Source: Paenibacillus allorhizosphaerae
GTDB lineage: Bacteria > Bacillota > Bacilli > Paenibacillales > NBRC-103111
Direction: 5' to 3'
Length of the DNA stretch: 64,000 nt
Assembly (NCBI RefSeq): GCF_910594985.1
Contig: NZ_CAJVCE010000016.1
Location: forward strand, 97,726 to 161,725
Shown: piece after piece, positions 16,303 through 37,122 of the stretch
How the letters are laid out: each line of letters begins with the position of its first letter
Position numbering within the stretch: the first letter of the stretch is position 1
Made by a program: the position numbers and the translations under genes
Notes under the pieces: generated by a model
Seen by the model: the letters and a program-made list of their open reading frames with translations, nothing else
Database searches by the model: none
What the model was told of the DNA's origin: nothing

Positions 16303-17444
16303 ACACAGAGGAATTAAGGCAGGCATCCAACCTTCTTTTGGAGCAGTACTGGATTCTCCAGGAAGAGCAGCCAAAAGATTTTGAACTCGTTCGTACCCAT
16401 GAGTCGTTATTGAGAACATGGTTTCGCGAAAGATTAGGGTACGATCTCATCGTTCACCGTAAAATCTTTGCCCGTTTAGAAAAAATTCCGGCAAGAGGAA
16501 GCGACAACATGGCACTGGATCCTGATGTGTTTAAAACACCCATGGATTACACGGTGCTGTTTGCGCTGTTGTCCTTCTTGGAATCGCGCTACGATTTGAC
16601 GTTTCTCATCAGCGAATTTCTTGAGGAACTGCGGATCATCATTGGGGAAGAAGACCATCTCTTTTTGGAAAAACACCGCAACCGCCTGAGCATCATCCGG
16701 GTGTTTAAATATGCCATCAAAACGGGGATCTTGATCAACCGGGATGGGGACATCGATACGTTTGAGAAAGAAGTACTGTTTAAAGTCCCGTCCGTTGCCC
16801 GGTATTTTCTTCGTCCGTTTCCGTGTGAAGTTCAGGAGGGGCTGGAAAACCCGTCGTTATGGGCGCACCTTCCCGAAGAGGACATCAAGCAACGCGTGTA
16901 CCGCCTGCTGCTGCTGGAGCCTGCGCTACTCTTCTCGGAGATGGCACCGGAGGAAGTGCAGTATGTGAAAAGGAATGCGTCATTCATTGCGAAGGATATC
17001 TTGGAATATACGCCGTTTCGTTTTGAGCTCTATGCCGAAGGCGCTATGCTGATCCGCAGCGATCCGGAAGGAAGCATGGCACGGGATTATCCGTCAGATT
17101 CGTCGCTTTCGGATGTGGCGCTGCATCTGGCGGAACGCCTTAAGGAGTATTATTTGGATCACTCCCTGCATCCGGATCACGCCGGCTTGGTGATGATGAG
17201 TACGCTGGAGTGGCGACGCCACCTGCTGAACCTAAAGAAAGAGTACGGCACGTATTGGAAAAAGGAATACGCTGTGGATTTGACCGACAACAAACTCGTC
17301 GAAGAGATTACAAAATACCTGGAAAGCTGGAACATGGTGCAGCGACCAGATGCGCATTCGGTGCGCCTCTCTCCTACCATCGTGAGAGTAACAGGCAAGA
17401 TCGTGGATAAAGGGGAGCCAAAGAATGAACTGGAGACCGACTAG
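16299..17444 (+). CDS. jetB: Wadjet JetB (MukE-like, DUF4194).
   Basis: About 381 aa from the ATG at 16299 (MNTEELRQ...). It overlaps jetA by 4 bp and jetC by 20 bp. It is an acidic helical protein typical of MukE-like subunits. Confidence 0.75.
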   Translation: MNTEELRQASNLLLEQYWILQEEQPKDFELVRTHESLLRTWFRERLGYDLIVHRKIFARLEKIPARGSDNMALDPDVFKTPMDYTVLFALLSFLESRYDLTFLISEFLEELRIIIGEEDHLFLEKHRNRLSIIRVFKYAIKTGILINRDGDIDTFEKEVLFKVPSVARYFLRPFPCEVQEGLENPSLWAHLPEEDIKQRVYRLLLLEPALLFSEMAPEEVQYVKRNASFIAKDILEYTPFRFELYAEGAMLIRSDPEGSMARDYPSDSSLSDVALHLAERLKEYYLDHSLHPDHAGLVMMSTLEWRRHLLNLKKEYGTYWKKEYAVDLTDNKLVEEITKYLESWNMVQRPDAHSVRLSPTIVRVTGKIVDKGEPKNELETD

Positions 17445-20400
17445 AGCGGCGTTAATTGATTTTTGGGTGTTTGACTACGAAGAATTTCATTTTCGCGACG
17501 GCAAAATGTTGCTACGCGGCGGCAATGGTGTCGGCAAGTCGATTACGATGCAAACCTTGCTCCCGGTGATGCTGGATGGTGATATTTCGAGCAAACGTCT
17601 GGATCCGTTTGGCACCCGCGACAAGCATATGGATTATTACGTGCTGTTCGAAAGCAAGATGGAGGAGCGGACCGAACGAAACAGCTATGTACTGTTGGAA
17701 TTCGAAAAGCCGGGACAAAACCGGTATATCACGCTCGGTATGGGACTCAACGGAAAAATCGGCAGAAAAAACGGGCTCGATGTTTGGTATTTCATCGTCA
17801 AAGATAACCGGAGATACCGCATCGATTTTGATGTGATTCGCCCGCGGATTGCACTCGATGGCGGCGAAGAAAGGGTCACGTACCCGAAAGGGGACCTGCG
17901 CAACAAAGTACTGAATACCGGTACCTATCACACAGATAAAAAAGAGGAATACGCGAAAGAAGTCAATAAACTGCTGTTTGAATTTCCCACCATGGACGTC
18001 TTTCAAAATTGGATCGAACTTCTGGTGCAGCTTCGCACGCCGAAACTTTCGAATGCCAAAGACATGAACTTTAAAGCGGTATACGACATCTTGAAAAAGT
18101 CGATGCCGGCACTCACCGATGACGATCTGCGGGTGCTGACGGAGTCCATCCAGCACATCGATAACATTCAAGACGATATTAAAAGCAGCCGGCAAACCGT
18201 GCAGTCGCTCGAGCGCATTGACGACGTGTATCGCGCGTATAATCGAGCTGTCGTGGGAGAAAAGTCAAAACAATATGTGGATGCAGTGAACCGCGAAAAC
18301 GACATTCGAAGAAGGCTTGCCAATGCAAAAGAAGAACTCGAGCGCATCCAAGAGAACAAGCGGCAAGTCGATGAGGTGGTGCTGGAGCTCACTACTGAGG
18401 AGCGGACGCTCAAGGCAGAGTTCGGAGGGTATAATAGGGAGCGTGGGGTAGTATCCATTTTGGAACAACTACAGCAGCTCTCGAGCGACCTGGATAGAAA
18501 AAAGATCAATCAAAAAGATAAAGAAAAGCAGTACAGCGACGAACTGAGCAAAAAGCGAAGTCAGATCGAGGCGCGGGATGCAGCGGAATCGACTCTAGGG
18601 GAAGAACTAGAAAGCCTGGAAGAGCGGTTCGAGAAGGTGACCGAACTGGCGGAACAAAGTGCTTATATGGATCACGAATATTATGCCGAACCGGAATCGC
18701 CGGATTTTAATGCATGGATCCAAAACGCGCAGTCTTATCTAGACATGCTTACCCGGGGGAAAGAAAAACTAGCAGATGTCAAGGAAAAAGAGCGCAGACT
18801 CCAAGAGCTTAAAGATGAGCGGGATGAGATTCAAAAAGAAGACGATCGGGTGAAAGAAGAAATACAGCACCTTCGTGAAGAGCTCATTTCACTGCAAGAG
18901 GATTATATGCAGGTGCTGTCGCAGTGGAGTCTGGAGCTTCAAGGTCTATCCTTAAACGAAGATGATAGCAAGCAGATGTATTCACTGGCTGCTGCCGTCA
19001 GTGAGGATGAGGACGGCTTCCATCCTTTGAAAGAGTGGATCACCCAAATGATCCGGCGTCAGGAAAAAGGTATCACCGAAAAGAAAATGGAGCTCCGGCA
19101 GCGGATGACCAACTGCGATAATTATCGGATCGAGCTCAGCAAAGAGCTGAGGAGATGGCAAAACCTGAAGGACCCTGAGCCGCAGCGTAAGGCAGGGGCG
19201 GATGCGTTCCGTGCTGCCTTGAAGGAAGCGGGAACGCCGCATGCACCGCTCTTCGCGCTGGTCGACTGGAAGGAACATGTAAGCCCCGAGCAGCGGATGG
19301 ATGTAGAGTCCGCCCTGAGTGCATCCGGGCTGCTGGATGCACTGGTGGCGCCAACTCTTGCCGGCGGGGAGATCCGTGAAGACCGGGTCCTGCAGGGCGC
19401 TGCACACGTAGCCGAAACAGGTACGCTGCTGGAATATGTTCAGATTGCGGATCATGGTCTTGCGATAAGCGATGAGGCGATTGCGAAGTGTCTTTCCGCC
19501 ATATCGGTGAGCGGCGAGAGGGACAGCCACACCGTGATCCTGTTAGGGAAGCGGTACCACACGGGAGCGCTTGTGGGCCACGCAGAACAGGCAGAAGCCA
19601 GTTACATCGGAAAAGTGGCGAGGGAGAAGATCCGCCAATCCAAGATCGAAACCCTGAGGGCGCAACTGAGTGAAGCGGATGAAGCCTACAAAGTGCTTCA
19701 ACAAGAGCAGCGTATGCTCAAAGAAAGAATGGATCGCCTTCAGGAAGAAGAGCGTCGCCTTCCGGTACCTACTGTCATCATGAGCCGGCTCAAGGACATC
19801 GGTCTCCTGCAGATTTCTCTGCAGTTCGTGGAAAAACAACTGGAGATCAATCAACAAAACCATAGCAAGGCATTTACAGCGCTCACGGAAACCCGAAAAG
19901 AGCTGAGTCAGATGCGGCTCAGTGTGAATACGATTGAGGCATGCAGGAAGGCGATCCAATTCCTCGGTGAGTATATGGATGAGGTGAGACAAATCCAACA
20001 CCGGATGAGTATTATTGAAAATAAGCGAGCCATCATCCTGAACTTGGAACTGAGAATCAAGGAAATCGAAGACTATATCGTCGACCTTCTAGGAGAAAAG
20101 AATGTTCTTGCTTCAGAAATTACGAAGCTTGAAGGGGAAAAGGTAGCCCTTCAGCTACAAGTCAATAAAATTGGCGGCGAACAGATTAAAGAGCGAATCA
20201 GCTCGATTATAACGAGGCTTGACCAGCTGCCGCAAGAGCTCAAAGAACAAAATGATATGTCGTATAAGTTGAAGTATCAATTGGAGCGCGCGGAGGAAAA
20301 GTTGCAAGAAGAAGAGGGAGAAAGTGTAAAGCGTATCGAATTAACCCAAGCGGCAGAGCGGATCCTGCGCGACGAACTGGCGCTACCGCTTCATGATCAG

Positions 20401-21480
20401 CCGGATACGGATATTTTCACCTATGCCAAGGCGGCAGCGGTCGGCACCATGGAGAGCAGCAGCCACGCCTACGATCACGTCACGAGTGTTTTAATGAATG
20501 AGCGGCTGTTAGATTACGTTTTTGAGTTTAAAACGCTGTTTGACAATACGAACGGACTGATCGCCGAGCGGCGGGTCATTGAAGCCGCAACAGGTCTCAA
20601 GCGGGTGAGTCCGGACGAGGCGCTGCGCGAGATTCGCGAAAAACTTGAGTCACTTGAGATGAATCTGGACGGGCAGGAGCAGAAGCTTTTCGAGGATATC
20701 ATCATCAATACTCTAGGGCTGACGATCCGCGAAAAAATCAAAAAGGCGAGGCGCTGGATTGATGGAATCAATGCGGTGATGAAGCGGCGAAAAGCGTCCA
20801 TCAGCTTCCGATTGGATTGGAAAGGGAAAAAGGCAGAAACGAGCGATGAGATTGACACGCTGGAGCTTGTGCAGCTGCTTACCGCCAGCAGCGAACTGAT
20901 GAAAGAAGAGGATTCAGAAAAGATCACCAAGCACTTCAGGACACAGATCAACCGGGCGCGGGAGTGGACGAGCGAAAACCCGACGAAGAAGCTGCAGGAC
21001 GCGCTGCGCGATGTGCTCGATTACCGGGAGTGGTTTGATTTCAAACTCGACTGCTATAAGGAAGGCAAATGGCATGAAGTGAACAGGACCTTTTTAAATA
21101 CCGCTTCCGGCGGTCAGCGGGCACTATCCGTGTATGTTCCGCTCTTTTCGGCGCTGCACGCTTGCTACGAAGGAGCGAACGAGGATGCGGCAAGGCTGGT
21201 GACGCTCGACGAGGCGTTTGCCGGGGTCGACGAGAAAAATATTGCGGATATGTTTGGACTTGCCGAGGAAATGGAATTTTCGTATATCCTTACCTCGCAA
21301 GTGCTGTGGGGGGACTACCCGACGGTGAAAAGCTTATCTGTTGCTCATATTATCAAACCGGAAACCGCGAACTTTGCAACCATCGCCCACTACAACTGGG
21401 ATGGCGTGGAGCTGGTGCGTCATGACGTCGAGGAAGAGGAGCATCGCGGGTTTGGTGAACAACTCGCTTTTGAGACTTAA
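17425..21480 (+). CDS. jetC: Wadjet JetC (MukB/SMC-like ATPase).
   Basis: 1351-aa ORF with N-terminal Walker A LLRGGNGVGKS. It has very long coiled-coil arms. The C-terminal ABC signature is LNTASGGQRALS and the Walker B is LVTLDEAFAGVDE. Confidence 0.9.
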   Translation: MNWRPTRAALIDFWVFDYEEFHFRDGKMLLRGGNGVGKSITMQTLLPVMLDGDISSKRLDPFGTRDKHMDYYVLFESKMEERTERNSYVLLEFEKPGQNRYITLGMGLNGKIGRKNGLDVWYFIVKDNRRYRIDFDVIRPRIALDGGEERVTYPKGDLRNKVLNTGTYHTDKKEEYAKEVNKLLFEFPTMDVFQNWIELLVQLRTPKLSNAKDMNFKAVYDILKKSMPALTDDDLRVLTESIQHIDNIQDDIKSSRQTVQSLERIDDVYRAYNRAVVGEKSKQYVDAVNRENDIRRRLANAKEELERIQENKRQVDEVVLELTTEERTLKAEFGGYNRERGVVSILEQLQQLSSDLDRKKINQKDKEKQYSDELSKKRSQIEARDAAESTLGEELESLEERFEKVTELAEQSAYMDHEYYAEPESPDFNAWIQNAQSYLDMLTRGKEKLADVKEKERRLQELKDERDEIQKEDDRVKEEIQHLREELISLQEDYMQVLSQWSLELQGLSLNEDDSKQMYSLAAAVSEDEDGFHPLKEWITQMIRRQEKGITEKKMELRQRMTNCDNYRIELSKELRRWQNLKDPEPQRKAGADAFRAALKEAGTPHAPLFALVDWKEHVSPEQRMDVESALSASGLLDALVAPTLAGGEIREDRVLQGAAHVAETGTLLEYVQIADHGLAISDEAIAKCLSAISVSGERDSHTVILLGKRYHTGALVGHAEQAEASYIGKVAREKIRQSKIETLRAQLSEADEAYKVLQQEQRMLKERMDRLQEEERRLPVPTVIMSRLKDIGLLQISLQFVEKQLEINQQNHSKAFTALTETRKELSQMRLSVNTIEACRKAIQFLGEYMDEVRQIQHRMSIIENKRAIILNLELRIKEIEDYIVDLLGEKNVLASEITKLEGEKVALQLQVNKIGGEQIKERISSIITRLDQLPQELKEQNDMSYKLKYQLERAEEKLQEEEGESVKRIELTQAAERILRDELALPLHDQPDTDIFTYAKAAAVGTMESSSHAYDHVTSVLMNERLLDYVFEFKTLFDNTNGLIAERRVIEAATGLKRVSPDEALREIREKLESLEMNLDGQEQKLFEDIIINTLGLTIREKIKKARRWIDGINAVMKRRKASISFRLDWKGKKAETSDEIDTLELVQLLTASSELMKEEDSEKITKHFRTQINRAREWTSENPTKKLQDALRDVLDYREWFDFKLDCYKEGKWHEVNRTFLNTASGGQRALSVYVPLFSALHACYEGANEDAARLVTLDEAFAGVDEKNIADMFGLAEEMEFSYILTSQVLWGDYPTVKSLSVAHIIKPETANFATIAHYNWDGVELVRHDVEEEEHRGFGEQLAFET

Positions 21481-21492
21481 CGGAGGAAGCTC

Positions 21493-22737
21493 ATGGACAT
21501 TGAAAAAGCCATCGCATTTTTTAAGAAAAATGCTGCCGGTTATGAACGATTGTTTGAAGAAATGATCAAAAAATACCGTTCGTATGGGCGGATCGCCGGA
21601 GAGATTACGCTGGAGATTTTGAAGCCTGAGGAGCGACGCGCCATCAGTGAATTTTTCCGAAGCGTCGACGAGCCCAAAGAACCGTATAAAATGAAACTAG
21701 TAAAGTTCGAGAAGATGCTGGCAAATTCGGTGTTTGACGGCATTACCTTAAAAGAGCTGCTGGATGCTTATGCAGGCGAAGAACTGATCTCGAACAAACA
21801 GGCAAGGGAGGACAAACGGTCGCAGCAGCAGCTCTTTTTTGACCGGCTTACTACGGCAGCTGCTAACGCTAACGTCCAAGCGGTGCTGGCGCAGCCGCCG
21901 CGATCCTACATCCGGCTGTACGAGGAAGATGAGCATAAAGCAAAGACCATTCTTTCCTTGGTACTTGAGGCGCTGGCGGCACTCCCCTTACACGGGTACG
22001 AGCGGCTGCCTATGTTTGCCGAGAAAATCACAAAGGACCCTCATGCGTTCGATCCGGACGTGTGGGGGAAATATCTGATCGACGGACTCAAGTTGCTATT
22101 TGACGCACCCGAAGAAGACGAGAGTGAACTACTGGTGGCAGCCGGGATTTTGAAAGATGATATCCATAACTTTGTCAGCGCAAGCGGACTTATTTCTAAT
22201 TTTTCTTTCTGGCAGATCGCAAGCGAGGAAGGCTGCATACTGAACGTTCCCTTACGGGAAGCCATAAAACTGACCTTTGCCGCCCCGGCGCATGGAAAAG
22301 ATGTTTTTGTGGTGGAAAACTCCGGGGTGTTTTCGGCACTCCTCGACCGAATGAAGAATGGGCCCATGCCGCCGCTGCTCTGCCTGCACGGGCAGCCGAA
22401 AGAAAGTTCGCTGATTCTCTTGGACCGCCTGGCAGAGAGCGGCGTGACGATTCACTATGCCGGTGACTTCGACCCGGAGAGCTTGATGATTTGCGAGCGG
22501 CTGTGGCAAAGATACGGAGAGCACTTCACTTTGTGGCACATGGACCGGATCTCGTACGACACGTGCCTTTCACTCGTTGAGCTCTCGACCCGGCGTCTTT
22601 CCATGCTGAAGAACGTGCAGATGCCTGATTTACATGAGGTGAAAGAACGCATGCTGGAGGCTGGTCGCGCGGGCTATCAAGAGCGGCTCGTGCCGCGGCT
22701 GCTGAAAGACCTCAATAACGAAAGAGAGGTGCTTTAG
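21493..22737 (+). CDS. jetD: Wadjet JetD (Toprim/DUF2220 nuclease subunit).
   Basis: 414-aa ORF with a C-terminal Toprim-like YAGDFDPESL motif. It is the last gene of the operon. A hairpin plus T-tract terminator lies at 22713-22742. Confidence 0.85.
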   Translation: MDIEKAIAFFKKNAAGYERLFEEMIKKYRSYGRIAGEITLEILKPEERRAISEFFRSVDEPKEPYKMKLVKFEKMLANSVFDGITLKELLDAYAGEELISNKQAREDKRSQQQLFFDRLTTAAANANVQAVLAQPPRSYIRLYEEDEHKAKTILSLVLEALAALPLHGYERLPMFAEKITKDPHAFDPDVWGKYLIDGLKLLFDAPEEDESELLVAAGILKDDIHNFVSASGLISNFSFWQIASEEGCILNVPLREAIKLTFAAPAHGKDVFVVENSGVFSALLDRMKNGPMPPLLCLHGQPKESSLILLDRLAESGVTIHYAGDFDPESLMICERLWQRYGEHFTLWHMDRISYDTCLSLVELSTRRLSMLKNVQMPDLHEVKERMLEAGRAGYQERLVPRLLKDLNNEREVL

Positions 22738-27019: not shown

Positions 27020-27305
27020 GATACTGGTGGGAACAAGAAATCCCCGCGGGCCATTGAATTGCACCCTTTAGAACATTGGAAAAAACCTTAGGTTATCCGA
27101 TGGATTCTAGGGGTGCATTTTTATGGCGAAGACTGGCACCCGGCAACTGCAGCCCCTATCCAAACTCCATTTTCAATCGCATTGATATGTGCTTAACCGT
27201 TTTGCGACACTAACATATGCGCATGTTACTAATATAGCTTATATTTCCAGTAATTTCGTTGTCCGATATATACGAAAATGGTAGAATTATGGGTAGACTG
27301 GAGGC

Positions 27306-28604
27306 GTGTATATGCATGAGAGCGAGTGGTTGCCGCAGCTATTATCTAAGCATGATTTGCTGCAGATATGCAACCTGTTTAATTTGTCTGTGCCTGGATT
27401 TCGAAGCGACAAGCTATCCAGCAGACCCGAAGAACAACTGAGGCTCATCGTCACACAGGCGCTAAAAAATGGCATTGGGGCAAAGAAAAACGGGAGCGGA
27501 AAAATACTCACAGAAACGTTTTTTTCTAAAATTGTCGACGAGATGGATGATTTGATTCAACCTCAATGGAAAAACTTAAGTTTTGAAAGTATAGTGGATG
27601 AACTTGATATATCCGTTGCCATTCGTCCCTATCAAAAATTGGCTTTTATTCGTGAGTGGTTCCCTGACAAATACGCCAGCCACGTAGAAACAATTCGTCA
27701 AAACGTCATCGAAAAACAGGAATTGTTTCACAGCATTTCAAAAATTAATGACAGCGATTTCGTCGACCGCATCATCCAAGATCTCAAGAAGGACGTAGAT
27801 TTCCCCGAATCTAATGAATACCTTCAATTCATTGAGCAGATCGGGGTGACGGCGCGGTGGGAACAGATCAAGAGCACCCTTGCAGGAAAACATACTGATC
27901 GCGAGCGCTTGATGTTTATCTCTGGTCTGACTTCACTTGACCGTTTCTTGGGAATTATCGCAGTAAAAGACGACTACGAACCTTTACGACCAGTGGCCTA
28001 CAGCCTTTACGTAAAGGAACGCGAGAAAGCATACCAAAGTGAATATGCAAGGGTTTACGACGAAAGCGCTGCCACGATGCAGCTAGCGACCAGACTAACC
28101 AAAGAGCTTGAAGAACAAACTGACGAAAATACGAAATTAACAGAACAAATAGAGATATTGACATGGGAAATTAAGAGGTTAAAGGATGCGAGGGAAGAGG
28201 ATGTACAACGTGAGGATGCACTTCAGAAAGAGCTGGGAGAACAACGAAAAGCTAGAGAATATGCGGAACAATTTAAGGAGCTTTTTGAGGAACTAGTACC
28301 CGAATCCAGTGAAGCGATGATTATTACAGATAAACCGGACCCGAGAATCAAACAGGTTTTCAATAAGTGTATCTTCTCTAAAAATTTCCTATTAAAAGAA
28401 AAGCTAAACGGAAACATACATAACTTGAAGTCAAAAATTTGGTTCATTGATCGGCAATCGTTTCGAAGTACAAGGGAATGGGTATTGCTGAAACAGTTTC
28501 TGGACGAAAACGACTTTTTCTATGAGGAATATAACGACTACCTTGAATTGCTGAGGCGCTACATGCAAGTAATTCAAAGCGATGATACGGAGGATTATAA
28601 CTGA
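27306..28604 (+). CDS. Hypothetical protein, first gene of a McrBC-like three-gene operon.
   Basis: 432-aa ORF with no recognisable motifs. A central coiled-coil is present (EEQTDENTKLTEQIEILTWEIKRLKDAREE). Its stop overlaps the start of the next gene (ATGA at 28604), implying translational coupling. Confidence 0.5.
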   Translation: MYMHESEWLPQLLSKHDLLQICNLFNLSVPGFRSDKLSSRPEEQLRLIVTQALKNGIGAKKNGSGKILTETFFSKIVDEMDDLIQPQWKNLSFESIVDELDISVAIRPYQKLAFIREWFPDKYASHVETIRQNVIEKQELFHSISKINDSDFVDRIIQDLKKDVDFPESNEYLQFIEQIGVTARWEQIKSTLAGKHTDRERLMFISGLTSLDRFLGIIAVKDDYEPLRPVAYSLYVKEREKAYQSEYARVYDESAATMQLATRLTKELEEQTDENTKLTEQIEILTWEIKRLKDAREEDVQREDALQKELGEQRKAREYAEQFKELFEELVPESSEAMIITDKPDPRIKQVFNKCIFSKNFLLKEKLNGNIHNLKSKIWFIDRQSFRSTREWVLLKQFLDENDFFYEEYNDYLELLRRYMQVIQSDDTEDYN

Positions 28605-30577
28605 TGACCTTGATAAACGAAAAAATGATAGACGAAAAAACAAAACGAGAGATCAATAGTTGTTACATTTTGGGGCGCCTAGCTGATGAGTCTGATCCTG
28701 ACCATCTCCCGGCGCTTGGGGTTGAGCGAAAGTCAGTAACCAAAAGCAATCGAAATGATGTCGTTGTATTTTATTTGCAGGCAGTAAGTGACGAACCCAA
28801 GCTTTTGAAAAATACACTTGAAAAGCAGCAAAAAGATTGTTATGTATCCTTTGACGACCGAAATTACCGGTACCTGCAGAGTATTAAATACTATGATCAA
28901 ACCGATAAAGTGCAGTACCTGCGTGAGCATCTAGAAGGAAAGCTGATTTTATTCAAACCCAAGCTGTCGGTGAGAAATGACAACACGGGTCACCGCTATC
29001 ATTACAATTTTGATATTGTTTTGGTTTCAGAAGATGCCGCGGAGAACAATTACTATGTGGCGGTCCCTCAGGTAAAAAAAGGTGTACCCGCTGCGCGGTT
29101 CGAGAGATCCTTGGTTGATAAATCGCCGGTCCAACTGCCGGAGTATCCAAGCTATATGGAAGTTCCTGAGTTTATCTTATGTGATGGTCAACTCTATTTT
29201 ATTCCAGAGCAGGATATTTTGGAGACCGGAAATAACATCAACTTGTATTACGCGAGAAAACCGCATCTAATAAAAAAGCTGCCTCTTAGTGAGCTTCAAG
29301 ATTTTTGGGATCACATGAAATGTGCTTACCGGGAGTTAGGTTTCTTGCCTGATCAATATGCAGGCCTTCTGCGCGATAAATTCCATCATCAAGGAAAATC
29401 AATTGTGCAGAATGAGGCGCTTGCGGCAGCACCCAAAAAAGAAGAAAAGGCAAAAATGCCTGAGACGCTCAGCGAATCTGATTTCATTTCTCGGTTAAAG
29501 TTCTTTGCTGAAGACGAAGAATTGATTTATCAGGAAGAGGAAGCACTCGTTAACTTCCATACGGCACTCAAAACAGGCAATATGGCAGTGCTTGGAGGCA
29601 TGAGCGGCACCGGCAAAACGCAGCTCGCGCTGCTCTATGCCAAAGCACTCGGGCTGAAAAAAGACGAAAATCTGCTAATTGTGCCGATTTCGCCTGCCTA
29701 CACAGAGCCATCGGACATCCTTGGGTACCACAATCATCAGATGGGACTATATATGGAAAGCGAAACAGGCTTGGTTTCTTTTTTAGAGCGGGCAAGCCGA
29801 AATAAAAACGAACTGCACATGGTGCTTTTTGACGAGATGAACTTGGGTCAGGTGGAGCATTATTTTTCTCCATTTGTATCCTTGCTCGAGATGCCGAAAG
29901 ATCAGAGAGAACTGCAGCTTTTTAGTAAAGATGCGATTTGTCACAATAAAAATCAAAGCCGTGTGATTCCGATTCAAGATAATGTCCTGTTTGTGGGAAC
30001 GGCTAATTTTGATGAGACGACAAAAGATTTTTCCAACCGTATGCTTGACCGGATGAACGTTATTTTTCTTGAAAAGCTCGGTTTTGGCGCATCGCTGGAG
30101 AAAGAAACGGAGACGAAAGATTTCGATAGGCAAACAAAAGTAAACCGCAAAATCTACCGCGAAGACTGGCTGTCCAAACCTGCTTCCCTTGAGGAGCATG
30201 AAATATCACTCCTAGATCGGCTCCATGAGCTGATGAGAGAATACGATAGTCAGGCCGGCGTAAGTTTCCGAATCGCCAAAGGCATCGGTATGTATCTTTC
30301 GAATATTCCGGAAGTGAGTGAAGGGAATCCTTTTGTTACAAGACAAACGGGTCTCGATTACCAAATCAAGCAGCGCATTCTCACAAAAATCCGTGGTCAT
30401 CGGGAACAAATCCAGGAGCTGGTCGGCACGTACGAGCTGGACAGTAACAAATATCAGCCTGGACTTATCGCCCGTTTGCTGATGGAAGAAGGGGATGGTG
30501 AAGAAGAATTTAAATCATCTATCAATTTCTTAAAGCAAAAAGCCAAGGAGATTACGAGGAACGGGTATGCGTTATAA
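28604..30577 (+). CDS. Divergent McrB-like AAA+ (AAA_5) NTPase with a novel ~330-aa N-terminal domain.
   Basis: Walker A is LGGMSGTGKTQ and Walker B-like is MVLFDEMNLGQVEHYF. The segment VLFVGTANFDETTKDFSNRMLDRMNVIF parallels the McrB NTAD...RRRF region. The N-terminal ~330 aa are unassigned. Confidence 0.65.
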   Translation: MTLINEKMIDEKTKREINSCYILGRLADESDPDHLPALGVERKSVTKSNRNDVVVFYLQAVSDEPKLLKNTLEKQQKDCYVSFDDRNYRYLQSIKYYDQTDKVQYLREHLEGKLILFKPKLSVRNDNTGHRYHYNFDIVLVSEDAAENNYYVAVPQVKKGVPAARFERSLVDKSPVQLPEYPSYMEVPEFILCDGQLYFIPEQDILETGNNINLYYARKPHLIKKLPLSELQDFWDHMKCAYRELGFLPDQYAGLLRDKFHHQGKSIVQNEALAAAPKKEEKAKMPETLSESDFISRLKFFAEDEELIYQEEEALVNFHTALKTGNMAVLGGMSGTGKTQLALLYAKALGLKKDENLLIVPISPAYTEPSDILGYHNHQMGLYMESETGLVSFLERASRNKNELHMVLFDEMNLGQVEHYFSPFVSLLEMPKDQRELQLFSKDAICHNKNQSRVIPIQDNVLFVGTANFDETTKDFSNRMLDRMNVIFLEKLGFGASLEKETETKDFDRQTKVNRKIYREDWLSKPASLEEHEISLLDRLHELMREYDSQAGVSFRIAKGIGMYLSNIPEVSEGNPFVTRQTGLDYQIKQRILTKIRGHREQIQELVGTYELDSNKYQPGLIARLLMEEGDGEEEFKSSINFLKQKAKEITRNGYAL

Positions 30578-32384
30578 TGCTGATTCACTCCCATTTGAGG
30601 TAGAATTTTTCACGGGTGCTACACCATCCAGCACTCAAAAGGTAGCTGAGTTTTGGAGCCGCGGCGCGGTTTCGCCAAAGTCGATTGACCATTTGGTGAG
30701 TATAAAAGAGGGAGTCCAAATCGGTGCCCGGTTGTTTGCTAAAGATGGCTTTGAAAAAGATGACAAGGCTAGACTTGTCATCCAAAGCGGTACCTATGAT
30801 GAAGAAGGAAAGCAAATCGAAATTAACATTCACATCACAAGCCAAGGGACCATGGAGTACATCTTTAACCATGAGCGAAATCAGATTTTCCCTTGGCGGC
30901 TTGGGGTTTATTTTTTTGATGTTCATTTTGGTGATGCGATTTACAGTTCTGCGATCTTTGTATCTCCCATCCACTTATCTACAAGTCAGGTTCAGTATAT
31001 GCATCTGCTTTTGGAGCAGGAAGTTGAAGGGATTTGCTATGATCTGATCTATACATCCAAGTCTACCGGCAATGAACATGAATTTTTGAACTCCAAATCG
31101 TATTACGACTATGTGCTTCGGCTGATGAACGAAAAGCACAATATCGATGCGGCTCTTTACGCACTCCAGCGAAATTTGATTACCCAGGTCAAAACAGACT
31201 ATCAGGAAGGTCCTTCAGAAAAAAAAGTTGATCATAAGAGCCTGCGCTGGAAAGCAGTGCGGGGTGAGTCATTCAGCTTAAACAAGAAAAAAAACCTCAC
31301 CTGTGACATTCCGGCTAACCAGTGGATTAAACACGTCCTGTTATTTTGGAAGCAAGATCTTGCTTATATTGAAAAAGATATAGATGAGGACTGTAAGCAG
31401 CTTCAGCTGCTCATCCGCTCCAAGGAAGAGGAGAAGCGTTCCAACGAGGAAAGAAAGCGGAATTGGTGGAATGATCGAGAACTTTCCCAAGAATCAAGGG
31501 ACTCTATGAAATCGATCATGCATCGAATTGAGGACGACATCAAAAAAGCGGAACGACAGCTCAACATCTTGACCCGCTGGAATCAGCTCGTAAAAAACCT
31601 TATTGGTCGTTTTGGATATCTACTTTCTTCCACTGAACTGTCTATCGTCACAAGAGCCCGGAGCAAGCCACAGTTGAAGGATCAAAATTACCGGAAGCTA
31701 ACCGAGCTCTATGAAAAAAGCAGCACTTTACTGATCGGAAACAGCAAGAGCAATCATGTGGTTCCTATTTTAAAGCCGACTTGGAAAATTTACGAGCAGT
31801 TTGTCTATTTCCAAGTCATAGATATCCTGCGCAAATGCGGTTTTTCGGTTCGACCTTGCTGCGATGTGGAGAGTCTGCGCGATATGGCATCGGGTCATTG
31901 CATAGAACTTGAAGATGATGAAACCATCTTGCATGTATGGTATGACAAGCATGTCTATATCAAAGAAGATGCTGTTGCCTCAGGCGATATGTTTTTTTCC
32001 TCCAGGCTGATTCAACCGGATATCCGCATTGATATGTACAAAAAAGAACAACGACCGGTGTTTCTGTCTACACTCGCAATGGATGCCAAACACCGCCGAT
32101 ATAAATCGCTACATAATGAAAATTTTACAAGCAATGTTTCTTCACAGATGTTACGATACGCTCAAATTTTTTACCGCGGCGAATACACCGCCGCAAGCCG
32201 CCGACGCCCGGTAGTCAGCAGCGTGCTATGCGTTTATTCACGGGATAGCGAAGCGCCGATCAAAAAAGAGGAATTGCCTATTGTTTTTATCCAGCTCTTC
32301 CCGGAAATCGATCACGACCAATTGACTGGATATAAAGAACTCATGGGAGAAATTCATGAGTGGCTGAAGGAATATGTGGATTAG
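30567..32384 (+). CDS. McrC/DUF2357-like PD-(D/E)xK nuclease partner.
   Basis: 605-aa ORF overlapping the upstream AAA+ gene by 11 bp. The C-terminal motif QPDIRIDMY...LAMDAKHRRY fits PD-x(n)-D-x-K. An operon terminator lies at 32590-32624. Confidence 0.55.
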   Translation: MRYNADSLPFEVEFFTGATPSSTQKVAEFWSRGAVSPKSIDHLVSIKEGVQIGARLFAKDGFEKDDKARLVIQSGTYDEEGKQIEINIHITSQGTMEYIFNHERNQIFPWRLGVYFFDVHFGDAIYSSAIFVSPIHLSTSQVQYMHLLLEQEVEGICYDLIYTSKSTGNEHEFLNSKSYYDYVLRLMNEKHNIDAALYALQRNLITQVKTDYQEGPSEKKVDHKSLRWKAVRGESFSLNKKKNLTCDIPANQWIKHVLLFWKQDLAYIEKDIDEDCKQLQLLIRSKEEEKRSNEERKRNWWNDRELSQESRDSMKSIMHRIEDDIKKAERQLNILTRWNQLVKNLIGRFGYLLSSTELSIVTRARSKPQLKDQNYRKLTELYEKSSTLLIGNSKSNHVVPILKPTWKIYEQFVYFQVIDILRKCGFSVRPCCDVESLRDMASGHCIELEDDETILHVWYDKHVYIKEDAVASGDMFFSSRLIQPDIRIDMYKKEQRPVFLSTLAMDAKHRRYKSLHNENFTSNVSSQMLRYAQIFYRGEYTAASRRRPVVSSVLCVYSRDSEAPIKKEELPIVFIQLFPEIDHDQLTGYKELMGEIHEWLKEYVD

Positions 32385-32589
32385 CCCAATGGGAGGTTAT
32401 TAACTATGGCGGAAACCTTAGAGAAAGCGGGCAACTCACAGAAGATCACGAGAGAAGGAAAAAGTGAAACGAAAAGAAGAAAAAGAAAACGCAAAGAATA
32501 GCGTATGCCACTCGATTGAGCATGAATTACGAACAAAACATCGGGTCGGAGGAAAAACAAAGTCATTAAAAGTACTTTATCGTAAATCA

Positions 32590-32624
32590 GGACAGCCGGC
32601 CAGATCAATCGGCTGCCTTTTTTA
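32590..32624 (+). terminator. Rho-independent terminator after the McrBC-like operon.
   Basis: ACAGCCGgccagatcaatCGGCTG followed by CCTTTTTT. Confidence 0.65.
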
Positions 32625-32719: not shown

Positions 32720-34165
32720 GTGACAATATTGAAACGTGTTTCCTTAATCGAATACGAAAAGCCACGCATTTTAGCAGTTGATTTTACTTCAGAGCAAGTT
32801 AATCGAATACAAAATGCCGGTTATCAGGTGTTACGTGCGTCAAGTGGTGTTTTAGTTGATTCGGCGGGTCAATATTCCATTCCTTGCTCTATTCATGATG
32901 TGGACATCTGCTTAATCCATTTGAGAGATAATTCTTTTCGAACCTCAAAAAACAGAGTACGGGCAGATACTTCAATTGAAGCTTCTCCCTGCTTCCAAGC
33001 CTTATTGCAATCAGTGTGGGATAGAAGTGGATATACAATAGTTTTCATTGATGAAAAGACCCATCCTCTTGAATTCGATGAAATAGGTATTCTTAATCTT
33101 GGTGTTATTGATATTGACCGGGTTTATCATCCAAGCTCTGTTTCTTCTGTGAATAGGAAGCATGCGACTATTTCGTTTCCATTGTTTAAAGGACAAGACC
33201 TTTTAATAAATACTAACAACCCTATTGGTATAATCTATGACCATTACAAATCTTACGCTCAACATAAAGTTATCTCTGTTAGCAAAGATATTCAATTCAG
33301 CAATAATAATGAACCAATTTATGATTTTTTGCATGATTGGGTTGTCGTAAATGGTGGAAATAAGCGAGAAGCATTATGTCTTGAAGTACGAAAAATCGAT
33401 CATGATGGTAAACAAGTCAGCGGCATCGCGATACTGCCAAGTTTCGGTGATAAAACAGCTGATGTAAGTATTCAAATAATAAGAGATCATGTCGCCAGTA
33501 TATCACCAAGTCTGTTTTCTAAATCACCGCAAAGCTGGGTCGAAAATTATAAGCCTTTGCCGGTGACGAAAATTGAACAAGAATTGGATGCATTTGTAGA
33601 AGATGCAAAGAGGAAAATTATTGAATTTGAAAGGAACATTGAAATCACACACGAAAATTATGAGTGGCTCGACAGGCTACTAATTGGCGAAGGCGATGAA
33701 TTTTCAAAAGCGGTTCAACAATCTTTGGTATTTTTGGGATTTAAAGTTATTGACGTGGATAGCCTTCCAACAACAGGAAATGCAAAGAGAGAAGATTTTC
33801 GAATAGAAGATGCGGCCGATGCATTCTTTGCCATAGGCGAGGCAAAGGCCACGAAGCGTGGAGCGAATAACGATATGGTCATGGATATACTCTCTCATAA
33901 AGCGCGGTATATGAGTGAGTTTAAAGTTTATGATTTGTCTGCCTTCTTATTTATTAATCACTCTAATCTATTGGAACCGTCTAAGCGACATGACTTTTAT
34001 AAAAGAGAAGACTATCGAAGCCGATTGAAAGAAAACAAAATATCTGCTATCGATTCCTGCTATTTACATAATCTTTGCCAGCGAGTTTTAGGTGGAGAAA
34101 TAAATGAACAAGAAGCAAGGGATCTTTTAAAACAAAACCATCCAGTCCTCAGTCTTCAAAAGTGA
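32720..34165 (+). CDS. Hypothetical protein with a possible PD-(D/E)xK nuclease motif.
   Basis: 481-aa ORF with a GTG/TTG start. The C-terminal segment is REDFRIEDAADAFFAIGEAKATKRG (D...EAK). The N-terminal ~330 aa are unassigned. The gene lies inside the repeat-bracketed island. Confidence 0.4.
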   Translation: MTILKRVSLIEYEKPRILAVDFTSEQVNRIQNAGYQVLRASSGVLVDSAGQYSIPCSIHDVDICLIHLRDNSFRTSKNRVRADTSIEASPCFQALLQSVWDRSGYTIVFIDEKTHPLEFDEIGILNLGVIDIDRVYHPSSVSSVNRKHATISFPLFKGQDLLINTNNPIGIIYDHYKSYAQHKVISVSKDIQFSNNNEPIYDFLHDWVVVNGGNKREALCLEVRKIDHDGKQVSGIAILPSFGDKTADVSIQIIRDHVASISPSLFSKSPQSWVENYKPLPVTKIEQELDAFVEDAKRKIIEFERNIEITHENYEWLDRLLIGEGDEFSKAVQQSLVFLGFKVIDVDSLPTTGNAKREDFRIEDAADAFFAIGEAKATKRGANNDMVMDILSHKARYMSEFKVYDLSAFLFINHSNLLEPSKRHDFYKREDYRSRLKENKISAIDSCYLHNLCQRVLGGEINEQEARDLLKQNHPVLSLQK

Positions 34166-34563
34166 GAGGAACAAGATTCAAAGCGCATATGTTTGTGTCG
34201 CGGTGTGACGACACAAACATATGCGCTTAATCGTTTTGCGACACCAACATATGCGCATAATTGCGGTTGGCTTTCCGTACATCGAAAGTAGCAGCTTAGT
34301 TAACGGAGTACGTTTGTATGGAGCTGCACTATCGGCCAGCCGGGCATGATAGCGTAAAAACCAGTGTTTAGTAACGTAAAGGTTGCCGGACGACACGGCG
34401 GCCCCGGGTTATTATGATAGTGGATCCCAAAGTATCCAATATGAAAAGTGATGGTTCAATATTGACTACAATGAATATATTTATTAGATCTGGAATAAAA
34501 GGTATTTAGTCAGTAATTGTTGAAATACTAGTAGTCATTTTTGATAGGGAATGAGGAACATAT

Positions 34564-35523
34564 ATGACGTTGATTCGGACTTTCACTGAAGGTGACGAAA
34601 TTACCGGCTTTTACTTACTAAAGAAAGCTGATTTAAAACAAACAAACGCCAGTCCACCAAAAGAATATTTTGATTTCGTAATTGCCGATACAAGTGGAGA
34701 AATTCCGGCCAAGATGTGGGAAGTTTCTTCAGCCGACAAAGAGACATATTTCCCGATGATGCTAGTTAAGGTAAACGGTCTTGTTCAAATGTACCGGGAG
34801 AAGCCGCAGCTGAAAATAATGAGGATTCGCAAAGCGACTGAAGAAGACGGGTATTCATTAACGGATTTCGTAAGATCCGCACCGATACAGCCGATCGATT
34901 TGGTTCACATAATAAAGAAGACGGCATCCAGTATCCAAGATGGTGATATTCAGAGTATTGTTCAGTTCTGTATAGCAAAAGTTGAAGAAAAACTCATGCA
35001 TTATCCTGCGGCGAAAGGGATGCATCATGCTTATTATGCCGGCTTAGCATATCACATCTGCCGCATGCTCGAACTCGGTGAATTCGTAGCAAAGCAGCGT
35101 CCGTTCCTTAACCAAGATTTAATCAAAGCCGGTATTATATTGCATGATATTGCCAAGCCTGAAGAAATGATTTCTGAGCTTGGGGTCGTGACAGACTACA
35201 GCTTAAGGGGGAAACTACTGGGCCACATTTCCATGGCGGCTAACTGGATCACTGAAGCAACTGTAGCAATGGGTATGGATACGACCAGTGAGAAGCTCGT
35301 GGTTCTTCAGCATTTGGTTCTGTCCCATCACAATTTAGGAGAATGGGGAAGTCCGGTTCAACCGCAAGTCCCGGAAGCCGTGGCCTTACACTACATCGAT
35401 CAATTGGATGCAAAACTGCAGGCAGTAGAAGATGCACTTGATACAATGCCAGATAACGAATCATGGACGGCTCCAATTCGAGTTATTGAAAACAAATCGA
35501 TCTATCGGGTGAAACGTGACTAA
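34564..35523 (+). CDS. YhaM-like 3'-5' exonuclease (OB-fold plus HD domain).
   Basis: HD-domain motifs are present (HHAYYAGLAYHICRML, ILHDIAKPEE, SHHNLGEWGSP). An N-terminal OB-fold-like region is present. Size of 319 aa matches YhaM. Confidence 0.65.
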   Translation: MTLIRTFTEGDEITGFYLLKKADLKQTNASPPKEYFDFVIADTSGEIPAKMWEVSSADKETYFPMMLVKVNGLVQMYREKPQLKIMRIRKATEEDGYSLTDFVRSAPIQPIDLVHIIKKTASSIQDGDIQSIVQFCIAKVEEKLMHYPAAKGMHHAYYAGLAYHICRMLELGEFVAKQRPFLNQDLIKAGIILHDIAKPEEMISELGVVTDYSLRGKLLGHISMAANWITEATVAMGMDTTSEKLVVLQHLVLSHHNLGEWGSPVQPQVPEAVALHYIDQLDAKLQAVEDALDTMPDNESWTAPIRVIENKSIYRVKRD

Positions 35524-35797
35524 AAGGCGTTCGCGGCGGTAGCATAGGCGACGGTATCGCCTGCAGCGTCTCTTCGGAGGGTGCTTTGTCTTTTATTTGA
35601 ATACTCTTGCCTGGCTCTTAAAGCAGCTCAACAAAAATAAACCCGCTCCATATCAATGAGGCGGGTTCTTCGTGTACAAAGAAAAGAGGGCGGACTATTG
35701 GATACAACGTTTGGATTGATAATATAGTGCTAAAGATGCAGGAAATATTTTCTACCCACCGAATAAGTATTTTATTGTCGATAGGGGGTATTTCCAT

Positions 35798-36397
35798 ATG
35801 CCGTTTTTCAAAATAGCCGACCGTTATGCTTTTCTTCATATTGAGAACTACAATAAGTTAAACGAAATTGCATTAAAAGATAAAACAGCTAAATGGCGGT
35901 TCGACAGTCATGTCCATGGCAGGAAAGAGGCTAATGAAGCCCAGAAGCTTAGGGAAAAAACACTGCATCACTTGTATAAGACATCATCCAGTTTCGTTGA
36001 CTTCTACTGTGAGTGGATTCACTTTGATCTTTCGGATCGAGATTTGATTAATCATGAGGTACCTTTTCTTTTATACGATTATGGCTGTATTAATGAATTT
36101 TTCGCCTATAGGAAGGTAAAGGAAGGTATACAAGAGGAGCTGTTCCCTGATCTTTACTATGATAAAGATGCAACATATCAGCTTTATCTCATTACCACAA
36201 ACAAGAAATTGTTTGGCAAACAGGAGCAGCACATCATCTTCTCGACCATGATAAACACCAATGAAATCATTTCGATCACAGGTGAACTAAAGGAATTTAT
36301 TATCGAGCTGCCAACATCTTATATTATTTGCAGCGAGTATTTAAAAGTGGTACAGAAACAACAAGTTTGCGTTGTAAAGGATGGTAAAACTTCATGA
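35798..36397 (+). CDS. Hypothetical protein, gene 1 of a two-gene cassette.
   Basis: 199-aa ORF with a GGGGG RBS. Its stop overlaps the start of the next gene (ATGA). No motifs recognised. Confidence 0.4.
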   Translation: MPFFKIADRYAFLHIENYNKLNEIALKDKTAKWRFDSHVHGRKEANEAQKLREKTLHHLYKTSSSFVDFYCEWIHFDLSDRDLINHEVPFLLYDYGCINEFFAYRKVKEGIQEELFPDLYYDKDATYQLYLITTNKKLFGKQEQHIIFSTMINTNEIISITGELKEFIIELPTSYIICSEYLKVVQKQQVCVVKDGKTS

Positions 36398-37122
36398 ATA
36401 TCGATTGGGGAACATTTTTTGTTTCAGTACCCACTACGCTTGTTATTGTCGGAGGATTCTTTAAGCTCGCAGTCAATTCTTTTATAGATAACAAATTTAA
36501 AGAAAGACTTGAAACTCATAAGAAGGAATTACAGTTGATTGTGGAAGCTAACAAATTTGATTATCAAAGAAAGATCGCTGATTTTAATTTGTATACAGCT
36601 AAAAGGCATGAATCATATATGGATTTATATGATAAGGTCTTGTTGGCCGATGGTTATATCCGTTCTTTAATGGGGTTTCAAAATAGACCCGATTATAGAG
36701 AGTATGGATTAGAAGACTTAGAAAAATGGCTTAAAAGCTTTAATCTATTATCAAATAAAATTGAGGAGTTTAAGAATAAATGGACTAAGACTGAAGGCGT
36801 AGATAAAACTAGAGAGAGGCAGGAACTTCATAGAGAGATTGGAAATTACATTAGAATGGTCGAGGTTCAAGTAGCGAACCTTAAACTAAGTGAGGCTAAG
36901 AACTATTTTTTATCCAAGAGGTTGTACTTTTCGGATGAGGTTATAGTGCTTACTTCAGCTATAATTGCTGATTTAAACAATTTTTCAACTAGAGTCGAAT
37001 ATCTACGCGCGCATCAGGAGCCATTTCTCGATAGGCAAAGTTTAGAACAGGCCATTGAGAACAATTTAGAATCAGTGAGAAAAAAAATAAAAGCAGAGCT
37101 AAGCGTTGGTGACTACAATTAA
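36394..37122 (+). CDS. Hypothetical membrane-anchored protein, gene 2 of the cassette.
   Basis: 242-aa ORF with an N-terminal TM helix (FFVSVPTTLVIVGGFFKLAV). The remainder is predicted helical and charged. Confidence 0.4.
   Translation: MNIDWGTFFVSVPTTLVIVGGFFKLAVNSFIDNKFKERLETHKKELQLIVEANKFDYQRKIADFNLYTAKRHESYMDLYDKVLLADGYIRSLMGFQNRPDYREYGLEDLEKWLKSFNLLSNKIEEFKNKWTKTEGVDKTRERQELHREIGNYIRMVEVQVANLKLSEAKNYFLSKRLYFSDEVIVLTSAIIADLNNFSTRVEYLRAHQEPFLDRQSLEQAIENNLESVRKKIKAELSVGDYN

What the first reader, a model, noticed from the sequence alone, without database searches (positions are those of the whole stretch)
27306..32384. Three-gene McrBC-like operon with an extra upstream gene and highly divergent subunits
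An unknown 432-aa protein is translationally coupled (ATGA overlap) to a 657-aa AAA_5/McrB-like NTPase. That protein has a novel ~330-aa N-terminal domain, and its motifs only loosely follow McrB (GGMSGTGKT; VGTANFDETTKDFSNRMLDRMNVIF). The third gene is a 605-aa McrC/DUF2357-like protein with a PD...D-A-K motif. The architecture recalls LlaJI R1/R2-type or McrBC-like restriction modules, but no methyltransferase is present and a third component of unknown function is. This could be an undescribed modification-dependent or NTP-driven defence variant, separate from the canonical McrBC at 51.8-55.3 kb.
Basis: partly seen in the sequence, partly recalled or inferred. Interest (0 to 1): 0.75.

Follow-up and report, generated by a model that had tools for sequence, protein, structure and literature searches.

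The report
Type I-B CoCoNuT (McrBC-like) defence operon
The three genes are real and form a mobile unit, but they match a published, computationally defined McrBC-type family (Type I-B CoCoNuT: CnuA, CnuB, CnuC) that has been catalogued in hundreds of Firmicute genomes and never tested experimentally, so this is a new member of a known kind.

Summary
The operon exists as described, in Paenibacillus allorhizosphaerae: gene A 27312-28604, B 28604-30577, C 30567-32384, with overlapping junctions, a promoter-like site upstream and a strong hairpin plus T-run downstream. It is not an undescribed system. It fits the Type I-B CoCoNuT of Bell et al. 2024 (eLife, PMC11090510).

- B is a McrB-type GTPase with the clade-defining NxD signature (NFDE, invariant in 48 homologs). 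Its "novel" N-terminus models confidently (pLDDT 90) as an OB (CSD/S1-like) module plus a YTH-like module.
- C carries DUF2357 and an intact PD-(D/E)xK nuclease (D485, D506-A-K508 invariant).

A-B-C are colinear in all 12 distinct related places examined, from Paenibacillus to Bacillus, Priestia and Caloramator, with unrelated flanks that often hold defence or mobility genes. Two details differ from the published description. The would-be phospho-acceptor Asp of the REC-like domain is not conserved, and no death-fold match was recovered for A's N-terminus. The mechanism (GTP-driven, modification-sensing nuclease, RNA or DNA target) is inferred and untested. Interest is modest.

The parts
27259..27287 (+). 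Promoter-like site (TTGTCC, 17-nt spacer, TAGAAT, with TG before the -10 hexamer) about 25 nt upstream of cnuA
   Evidence: Consensus scan. This is a pattern match only; function is not shown.
27312..28604 (+). cnuA-like gene (430 aa): helical N-terminal region (1-218), a single 104-residue helix forming the coiled coil (225-328), and a small REC-like alpha/beta domain (335-424)
28604..30577 (+). cnuB-like gene (657 aa): N-terminal OB (CSD/S1-like) plus YTH-like modules (~20-265), a linker, then a McrB-type AAA+ GTPase (~310-490) with Walker A GMSGTGKT, Walker B DE (410-411) and the NxD signature N468-F-D470-E471, then a C-terminal helical domain
30567..32384 (+). cnuC-like gene (605 aa): ~110-aa N-terminal region (Ig-like according to the literature, not modelled here), DUF2357/McrC_N (~117-320) with a charged helical stretch (~280-345), and a PD-(D/E)xK nuclease (~405-560; D485, D506, K508)
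32589..32623 (+). Likely intrinsic terminator of the operon: G+C-rich hairpin followed by TTTTTT
   Evidence: Sequence. RNA fold -22 kcal/mol, z=-6.5, 0 of 200 shuffles fold as well.

Best explanation
The locus is a Type I-B CoCoNuT, a three-component branch of the McrBC (Type IV restriction) family. It sits in a defence island of Paenibacillus allorhizosphaerae.

Proposed mechanism, by analogy with E. coli McrBC; all of it is inferred unless marked as shown:
- CnuB assembles into an AAA+ ring that hydrolyses GTP. Shown here: intact Walker A, Walker B and NxD motifs.
- Its N-terminal OB (CSD/S1-like) and YTH-like modules read a single-stranded and/or base-modified nucleic acid. Shown here: fold similarity only. 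The ligand is unknown; Bell et al. favour RNA, and ssDNA or modified DNA is not excluded.
- CnuC binds the ring through its DUF2357/McrC_N part, stimulates GTP hydrolysis and cleaves the target with its PD-(D/E)xK site. Shown here: catalytic residues are invariant.
- CnuA, a coiled-coil protein with a helical head and a REC-like tail, acts as scaffold or regulator. It may bridge CnuBC complexes or gate their activity. Shown here: it is always co-encoded and translationally coupled, and it evolves fastest of the three.

Because the would-be phospho-acceptor Asp is not conserved in the family, control by a histidine kinase is unlikely, and the tail is more probably a protein-interaction module.
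For: Architecture and linkage: A-B-C are colinear with overlapping junctions in all 15 fetched loci, which are 12 distinct places in Paenibacillus, Bacillus subtilis, Priestia and Caloramator. Flanks are unrelated: Wadjet, Mrr, integrases, transposases, HNH, Cap4.

CnuC: DUF2357 and PDDEXK_7 hits, and an invariant PD...DAK motif.

Literature: the Type I-B definition. A Type I-B CoCoNuT has been annotated in S. aureus. A seven-gene Type II CoCoNuT is reported to protect against RNA phages and one DNA phage.
Against: - No direct comparison with the paper's Type I-B reference sequences was possible, because the sheet was truncated in the held copy. Placement in the Type I-B clade therefore rests on architecture and motifs, not on a tree.
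- The Ig-like N-terminus of CnuC was not modelled.
- No experiment exists for any Type I-B system. Defence function, the target (RNA or DNA) and the role of CnuA are all inferred.
Confidence: 0.82

Rival explanations
1. It is a classical DNA-targeting, modification-dependent Type IV restriction enzyme. It would work like E. coli McrBC on modified phage dsDNA, with CnuA as a mere accessory; the RNA-targeting idea would be wrong.
Against: The OB hits are overwhelmingly RNA-binding S1/CSD domains from exosome subunits, RNase R/II, ribosomal protein S1 and eIF1A. The genome already has a canonical McrBC. Bell et al. argue for RNA targets in this branch. None of this is decisive.
Confidence: 0.3
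2. It is a truly undescribed defence system, separate from all catalogued ones.
For: A and C hit no PADLOC model, and B hits only the candidate model PDC-M26A over residues 293-447. No NCBIfam model matches. A has no Pfam domain.
Against: Gene order, sizes, the NxD motif, the CSD+YTH N-terminus, the separate coiled-coil protein, DUF2357 plus PD-DxK, and the Bacillota distribution all match the published Type I-B CoCoNuT. The PADLOC copy used here (version 2.0.0, 2023) is dated earlier than the 2024 paper that names the class.
Confidence: 0.05
3. [quoted passage not shown]
For: In B. subtilis and P. forsythiae the cassette lies in a housekeeping neighbourhood next to rlmH (SPOUT methyltransferase) and yyzF. 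The predicted ligand-binding modules resemble RNA-binding folds.
Against: CnuA is present, whereas Pseudo-Type I-B lacks it. Occurrence is patchy, flanks are unrelated, and neighbours include Wadjet (twice), Mrr, integrases, transposases and Cap4 nuclease. A diverges rapidly. This pattern is typical of mobile defence cargo.
Confidence: 0.1
4. It is an LlaJI-type R-M module (R1/R2 = McrB/McrC-like) that has lost its methyltransferases.
For: LlaJI.R1/R2 are McrB- and McrC(DUF2357)-like (own knowledge). Bell et al. note that many McrBC branches are methyltransferase-associated.
Against: No methyltransferase flanks the cassette in any of the 12 distinct places. The only methyltransferase-family genes nearby are housekeeping RNA methyltransferases a few kb upstream in three loci: a TRAM/U5 RNA methyltransferase in L001 and rlmH in L004 and L006. 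The third gene is a coiled-coil protein instead.
Confidence: 0.03

Closest known systems
Type I-B CoCoNuT (CnuA-CnuB-CnuC), Bell, Sahakyan, Makarova, Wolf & Koonin, eLife 2024 (PMC11090510)
   Same: Three genes in the order coiled-coil protein, McrB-like GTPase, McrC-like nuclease. NxD(E) signature. CnuB has OB (CSD-like) and YTH-like N-terminal modules and no fused coiled coil. CnuC has DUF2357 and an active PD-DxK site. CnuA has a helical head, a long coiled coil and a small alpha/beta tail. Found in Bacillota.
   Different: The death-fold (PYD/CARD) similarity of the CnuA head was not recovered here. The REC-like tail lacks a conserved phospho-acceptor Asp across the family (Thr 20, Asp 10 of 46). 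The Ig-like N-terminus of CnuC was not tested. I could not verify that this exact locus is in their table.
Canonical McrBC (E. coli K-12 type), also present in this window at 51844-55348
   Same: An AAA+ GTPase partner plus a PD-(D/E)xK nuclease partner in adjacent overlapping genes. E. coli McrB is the only PDB sequence hit of the B profile.
   Different: NxD instead of NxxD. The McrC is of the DUF2357+PDDEXK_7 type, not PF10117. The N-terminal reader is different (OB+YTH instead of the 5mC DNA-binding domain). There is an extra obligatory coiled-coil gene. B against the window's McrB gives only E=0.015.
Type I-A and Pseudo-Type I-B CoCoNuTs
   Same: The same NxD GTPase clade. B against Type I-A CnuB TBC54486.1 gives E=2e-21.
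   Different: Type I-A has the coiled coil fused to CnuB and a helical insert between Walker B and NxD. That insert is absent here: ~16 residues lie between the aligned blocks, against ~80 in Type I-A. Pseudo-Type I-B lacks CnuA, which is present here.
PADLOC candidate PDC-M26 (unpublished candidate model)
   Same: B hits PDC-M26A at 1.6e-32 over the AAA+ core.
   Different: Only residues 293-447 match. A and C hit no PADLOC model. The composition of PDC-M26 is not documented in the searchable literature.

Membership tests
Type I-B CoCoNuT | McrB-like GTPase with an NxD (not NxxD) signature, usually followed by E or D | tested here: met
   N468-F-D470-E471 is invariant in 48 homologs. It aligns with NMDETT of a listed Type I-A CnuB. 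The canonical McrB in the same window reads NTAD.
Type I-B CoCoNuT | A separate coiled-coil protein (CnuA) encoded with CnuB and CnuC, and no coiled coil fused to CnuB | tested here: met
   A has a 104-residue continuous helix at 225-328, and its sequence matches are almost all coiled coils. It is colinear with B and C in all 15 loci. The B N-terminal model contains no long helix.
Type I-B CoCoNuT | CnuA N-terminal PYD/CARD-like (death-fold) helical domain | tested here: inconclusive
Type I-B CoCoNuT | CnuA C-terminal REC (receiver)-like domain | tested here: inconclusive
Type I-B CoCoNuT | CnuB N-terminal CSD-like OB fold and YTH-like domain | tested here: met
Type I-B CoCoNuT | CnuC with McrC_N (DUF2357) and a PD-(D/E)xK nuclease | tested here: met
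   14 of 23 members hit DUF2357 and 7 of 23 hit PDDEXK_7. Some exceed the gathering score. D485, D506 and K508 are invariant.
Type I-B CoCoNuT | CnuC N-terminal immunoglobulin-like beta-sandwich | not tested
About 110 residues precede the DUF2357 match.
Type I-B CoCoNuT | Placement of the GTPase domain inside the Type I-B clade of the CnuB tree | not testable with these tools
   The Type I-B sheet of Supplementary file 3 is truncated in the held copy, with 620 rows missing. The reference accession GED20858.1 was not found among the listed cluster members.
Type I-A CoCoNuT | Helical insert between Walker B and NxD, and a coiled coil fused to CnuB | tested here: not met
   The gap between the aligned blocks is ~16 residues in B against ~80 in TBC54486.1. 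B has no coiled coil.
Canonical McrBC (E. coli type) | NxxD signature, McrC of Pfam family PF10117, and two genes only | tested here: not met
   B has NxD. C does not hit PF10117, and profile comparison with the window's McrC gives probability 1.7%. The third gene is obligatory.
LlaJI-type R-M | Cognate DNA methyltransferase genes adjacent to R1/R2 | tested here: not met
   No DNA methyltransferase flanks the cassette in the window or in any homologous locus.
PADLOC PDC-M26 | All components match the system's models | tested here: not met
   Only B matches PDC-M26A, and only partially. A and C match nothing.

The most novel reading that the evidence does not exclude
CnuA may be the variable sensor or switch of the system rather than a passive scaffold. 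It evolves about twice as fast as CnuB and CnuC. Its REC-like tail has lost the phospho-acceptor but keeps an invariant R381/W390/E406 surface. Its helical head could work as a death-fold-like oligomerisation module. On this reading, a phage-derived trigger or inhibitor acts on CnuA and licenses the CnuBC GTPase-nuclease. That would be a protein-sensing layer on a Type IV restriction chassis, and it would contradict the published idea of control by a histidine kinase.
Probability: 0.15. Interest if true: 0.6.

Novelty: new member of a known kind. Interest (0 to 1): 0.3.

Why it matters
The main value is corrective. A locus that looks novel to Pfam, NCBIfam and PADLOC belongs to a class defined in 2024, so it should be labelled Type I-B CoCoNuT and not reported as new. 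I found no experimental study of any Type I-B CoCoNuT. A compact three-gene Paenibacillus cassette with intact GTPase and nuclease motifs is a reasonable candidate for the first functional test: whether the target is RNA or DNA, and what CnuA does. The non-conserved phospho-acceptor in the REC-like tail is a small, testable refinement of the published model.

Tried and rejected
- Direct comparison with the paper's Type I-B reference proteins (TKH01449.1, GED20858.1, GED20857.1) failed, because the supplement sheet is truncated in the held copy. A cluster-member look-up of 10 B homologs did not show the accession.
- Sequence-profile searches of A (15- and 46-sequence profiles) and of C against the PDB gave only coiled-coil noise or nothing.
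- Pfam scans of 46 A-family members found neither a REC nor a death domain.
- Foldseek of the A model against the PDB found nothing at E<=0.001.
- C against a truncated Type I-A CnuC fragment, and against the window's canonical McrC, showed no significant similarity. This is uninformative, since the architectures differ and the fragment lacks the nuclease.
- PDC-M26 could not be traced in the literature.
- A small basic ORF downstream of C (32406-32504) was considered as a fourth component and rejected, because it is not conserved in any related locus.
- The 481-aa ORF at 32720-34165 was rejected as a component. It lies beyond the terminator, has no counterpart in the other loci and has no Pfam or PADLOC hit.
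- The genome-collection scan with the A alignment recovered only 7 Paenibacillus loci, because the back-translated patterns were clade-specific.
Full report
**Observation.** The window comes from Paenibacillus allorhizosphaerae: all three proteins have 100%-identical database entries from that species. Three co-oriented ORFs occupy 27306-32384.

Gene A most likely starts at the ATG at 27312, giving 430 aa. GGAGG at 27300-27304 lies 7 nt upstream of that ATG, and every homolog begins MHESEW. Homologous loci do use a 4-nt overlap. B and C overlap by 11 nt.

A promoter-like site (TTGTCC, 17-nt spacer, TAGAAT, with a TG extension) lies at 27259-27287. A stable hairpin followed by TTTTTT lies at about 32589-32623 (-22 kcal/mol, z=-6.5). 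The unit is therefore a three-gene operon.

**Family scans.** B hits Pfam AAA_5 (1.7e-5) and the unpublished PADLOC candidate model PDC-M26A (1.6e-32, residues 293-447 only). A and C hit nothing significant in Pfam, NCBIfam or PADLOC. This absence is what made the locus look novel.

**Conservation and linkage.** With the word-indexed search, A has only 15 close relatives, and every one that carries an organism name is from Paenibacillus. An exhaustive profile search finds 58 representative clusters, nearly all 410-450 aa and aligned end to end. B has more than 250 full-length homologs across Bacillota, including Bacillus, Priestia, Brevibacillus, Salinicoccus and Caloramator, and NCBI annotates them as 'McrB family protein'. 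C has 24 relatives, annotated as DUF2357 or nuclease-domain proteins.

In all 15 fetched loci, which represent 12 distinct places, the three genes are colinear and tightly packed. The upstream proteins of the distant loci match the A profile: B. subtilis and Priestia at 1e-26 to 1e-30, and Caloramator at 7e-17.

Flanks are unrelated between loci. They include a type II Wadjet (in this window and again in P. elgii), an Mrr-like nuclease, integrases, DDE transposases, HNH, T5orf172 and a Cap4 nuclease. The cassette therefore behaves as mobile defence-island cargo.

A diverges much faster than its partners. In L015, A is 31% identical, B 63% and C 47%. In L009, A is 77%, B 95% and C 89%.

**Anatomy of B.** In an alignment of 48 diverse homologs, Walker A (G332, G335, G337, K338), the Walker B glutamate (E411; D410 in at least 90%) and N468-x-D470-E471 are invariant. 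This NxD(E) signature defines a major branch of McrB GTPases in Bell et al. 2024.

B aligns with the GTPase core of a listed Type I-A CnuB (TBC54486.1) at E=2e-21, and NFDETT aligns with NMDETT. Against the canonical McrB of the same window it scores only E=0.015, and that protein reads NTAD. The B profile hits only E. coli McrB in the PDB, at 8e-5. The helical insert between Walker B and NxD that marks Type I-A is absent.

- YTH/EVE domains: MRB1, CPSF4, YTHDC2, YTHDF1, YTHDC1, Mmi1 and THYN1.
- S1/CSD-type OB folds: exosome Rrp4/Rrp40/Csl4, CRHSP-24, RNase R/II, Unr, ribosomal protein S1 and eIF1A.

**Anatomy of C.** P484-D485 and D506-A507-K508 are invariant in 23 homologs. Of the 23 members, 14 hit DUF2357 and 7 hit PDDEXK_7. 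Individual members exceed the Pfam gathering scores, with DUF2357 over about 117-320 and PDDEXK_7 from about 409. About 110 N-terminal residues precede DUF2357. The paper describes an Ig-like sandwich there, which I could not model. C is not a PF10117-type McrC.

**Anatomy of A.** The AF2 model (pLDDT 81) shows helices over 1-218, one continuous helix over 225-328 and a beta-alpha domain over 335-424. Sequence profiles hit almost nothing but coiled coils.

In a 46-sequence family alignment, the residue at the end of the third strand, which would be the phospho-acceptor, is Thr in 20, Asp in 10 and Asn in 4. By contrast R381 (44 of 46), W390 (42 of 46) and E406 (43 of 46) are conserved. Assigning that position as the phospho-acceptor rests on strand topology, not on a structural superposition. 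I read the tail as a pseudo-receiver used for protein contacts, not as a target of histidine kinases. No kinase is encoded nearby in any locus.

**Comparison with the known.** Bell, Sahakyan, Makarova, Wolf and Koonin (eLife 2024, PMC11090510) define Type I-B CoCoNuT as three proteins:
- CnuA: PYD/CARD-like head, coiled coil, REC.
- CnuB: CSD-YTH-McrB with NxD and no fused coiled coil.
- CnuC: IG-McrC_N-PD-DxK.

The class is mainly in Bacillota, with more than 620 rows in their table. Tested here and met: NxD, a separate coiled-coil protein, the OB+YTH N-terminus, DUF2357 plus an active PD-DxK site, absence of the Type I-A insert, and presence of CnuA (which excludes Pseudo-Type I-B). Inconclusive: the death-fold head and the REC tail. 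Not tested: the Ig-like domain of CnuC. Not testable here: tree placement, because the reference sequences are truncated in the held supplement and the cluster look-up did not show the reference accession.

A 2025 paper already annotates a three-gene Type I-B CoCoNuT in S. aureus by homology. A 2026 preprint reports that a seven-gene Type II CoCoNuT protects P. aeruginosa against RNA phages and one DNA phage. I found no experiment on Type I-B.

**Mechanism (inferred).** By analogy with E. coli McrBC, where a hexameric GTPase is activated by McrC inserted in the ring and the nuclease sits in McrC (Niu et al. 2020, as cited), I propose the following. A CnuB ring reads single-stranded or modified nucleic acid through its OB and YTH-like modules. 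CnuC stimulates GTP hydrolysis and cleaves. CnuA dimerises through its coiled coil and bridges or gates CnuBC complexes. Whether the substrate is RNA, as Bell et al. favour, or DNA cannot be decided from sequence. The intact PD-(D/E)xK site and the DNA-defence neighbours keep DNA plausible.

**Verdict.** The interpretation as a McrBC-like three-gene module is right, but the claim that it is undescribed is not. It is a new member of a known, computationally defined and experimentally untested kind. Interest is 0.3.

Noticed in passing
window 14818-22737: A complete Wadjet (JetABCD) operon lies about 4.5 kb upstream of the cassette: DUF2397, DUF2398, a 1351-aa SMC-like JetC, and JetD (PADLOC JetD2 at 2.6e-125). 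The same Wadjet-then-CoCoNuT adjacency recurs in Paenibacillus elgii (L003). This suggests either a shared island or joint transfer.
   Followed up: partly
window 51844-55348: The canonical McrBC pair is real: AAA_5 at 3e-14 with an NTAD (NxxD) motif, and McrC PF10117 at 6e-66. The N-terminal ~200 aa of its 750-aa McrB hits the PADLOC model PD-T4-1 (6e-23), an unusual reader domain for a McrB.
   Followed up: partly
window 56604-59147: An 847-aa DinG-like helicase hits the PADLOC model typeIV_DinG (CRISPR type IV-A associated) at 1e-81. No cas genes were looked for nearby.
   Followed up: no
window 42953-45026: A dense array of 19 tRNA genes lies on the + strand, about 10 kb downstream of the cassette. 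The defence genes sit on both sides of it.
   Followed up: no
L004 5066-5578 and L006 4646-5125: In both P. forsythiae and B. subtilis the cassette lies just downstream of yyzF and the SPOUT methyltransferase gene (rlmH-like). This may be a conserved chromosomal insertion hot spot shared across genera.
   Followed up: no
window 32406-32504: A small RBS-preceded ORF encodes a 31-aa, very basic peptide (MAETLEKAGNSQKITREGKSETKRRKRKRKE) between cnuC and the terminator hairpin. It is not conserved in related loci.
   Followed up: yes
window 32720-37122: Four ORFs lie downstream (481 aa, 319 aa with an HD domain, 199 aa and 242 aa). Apart from the HD domain they have no Pfam or PADLOC match. They could be further uncharacterised island cargo.
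   Followed up: partly
L007 11335-16058: The Priestia megaterium locus carries T5orf172, a Toprim topoisomerase and a Cap4-nuclease gene immediately downstream of its CoCoNuT, and integrase and HNH genes upstream. This is another composite defence island.
   Followed up: no
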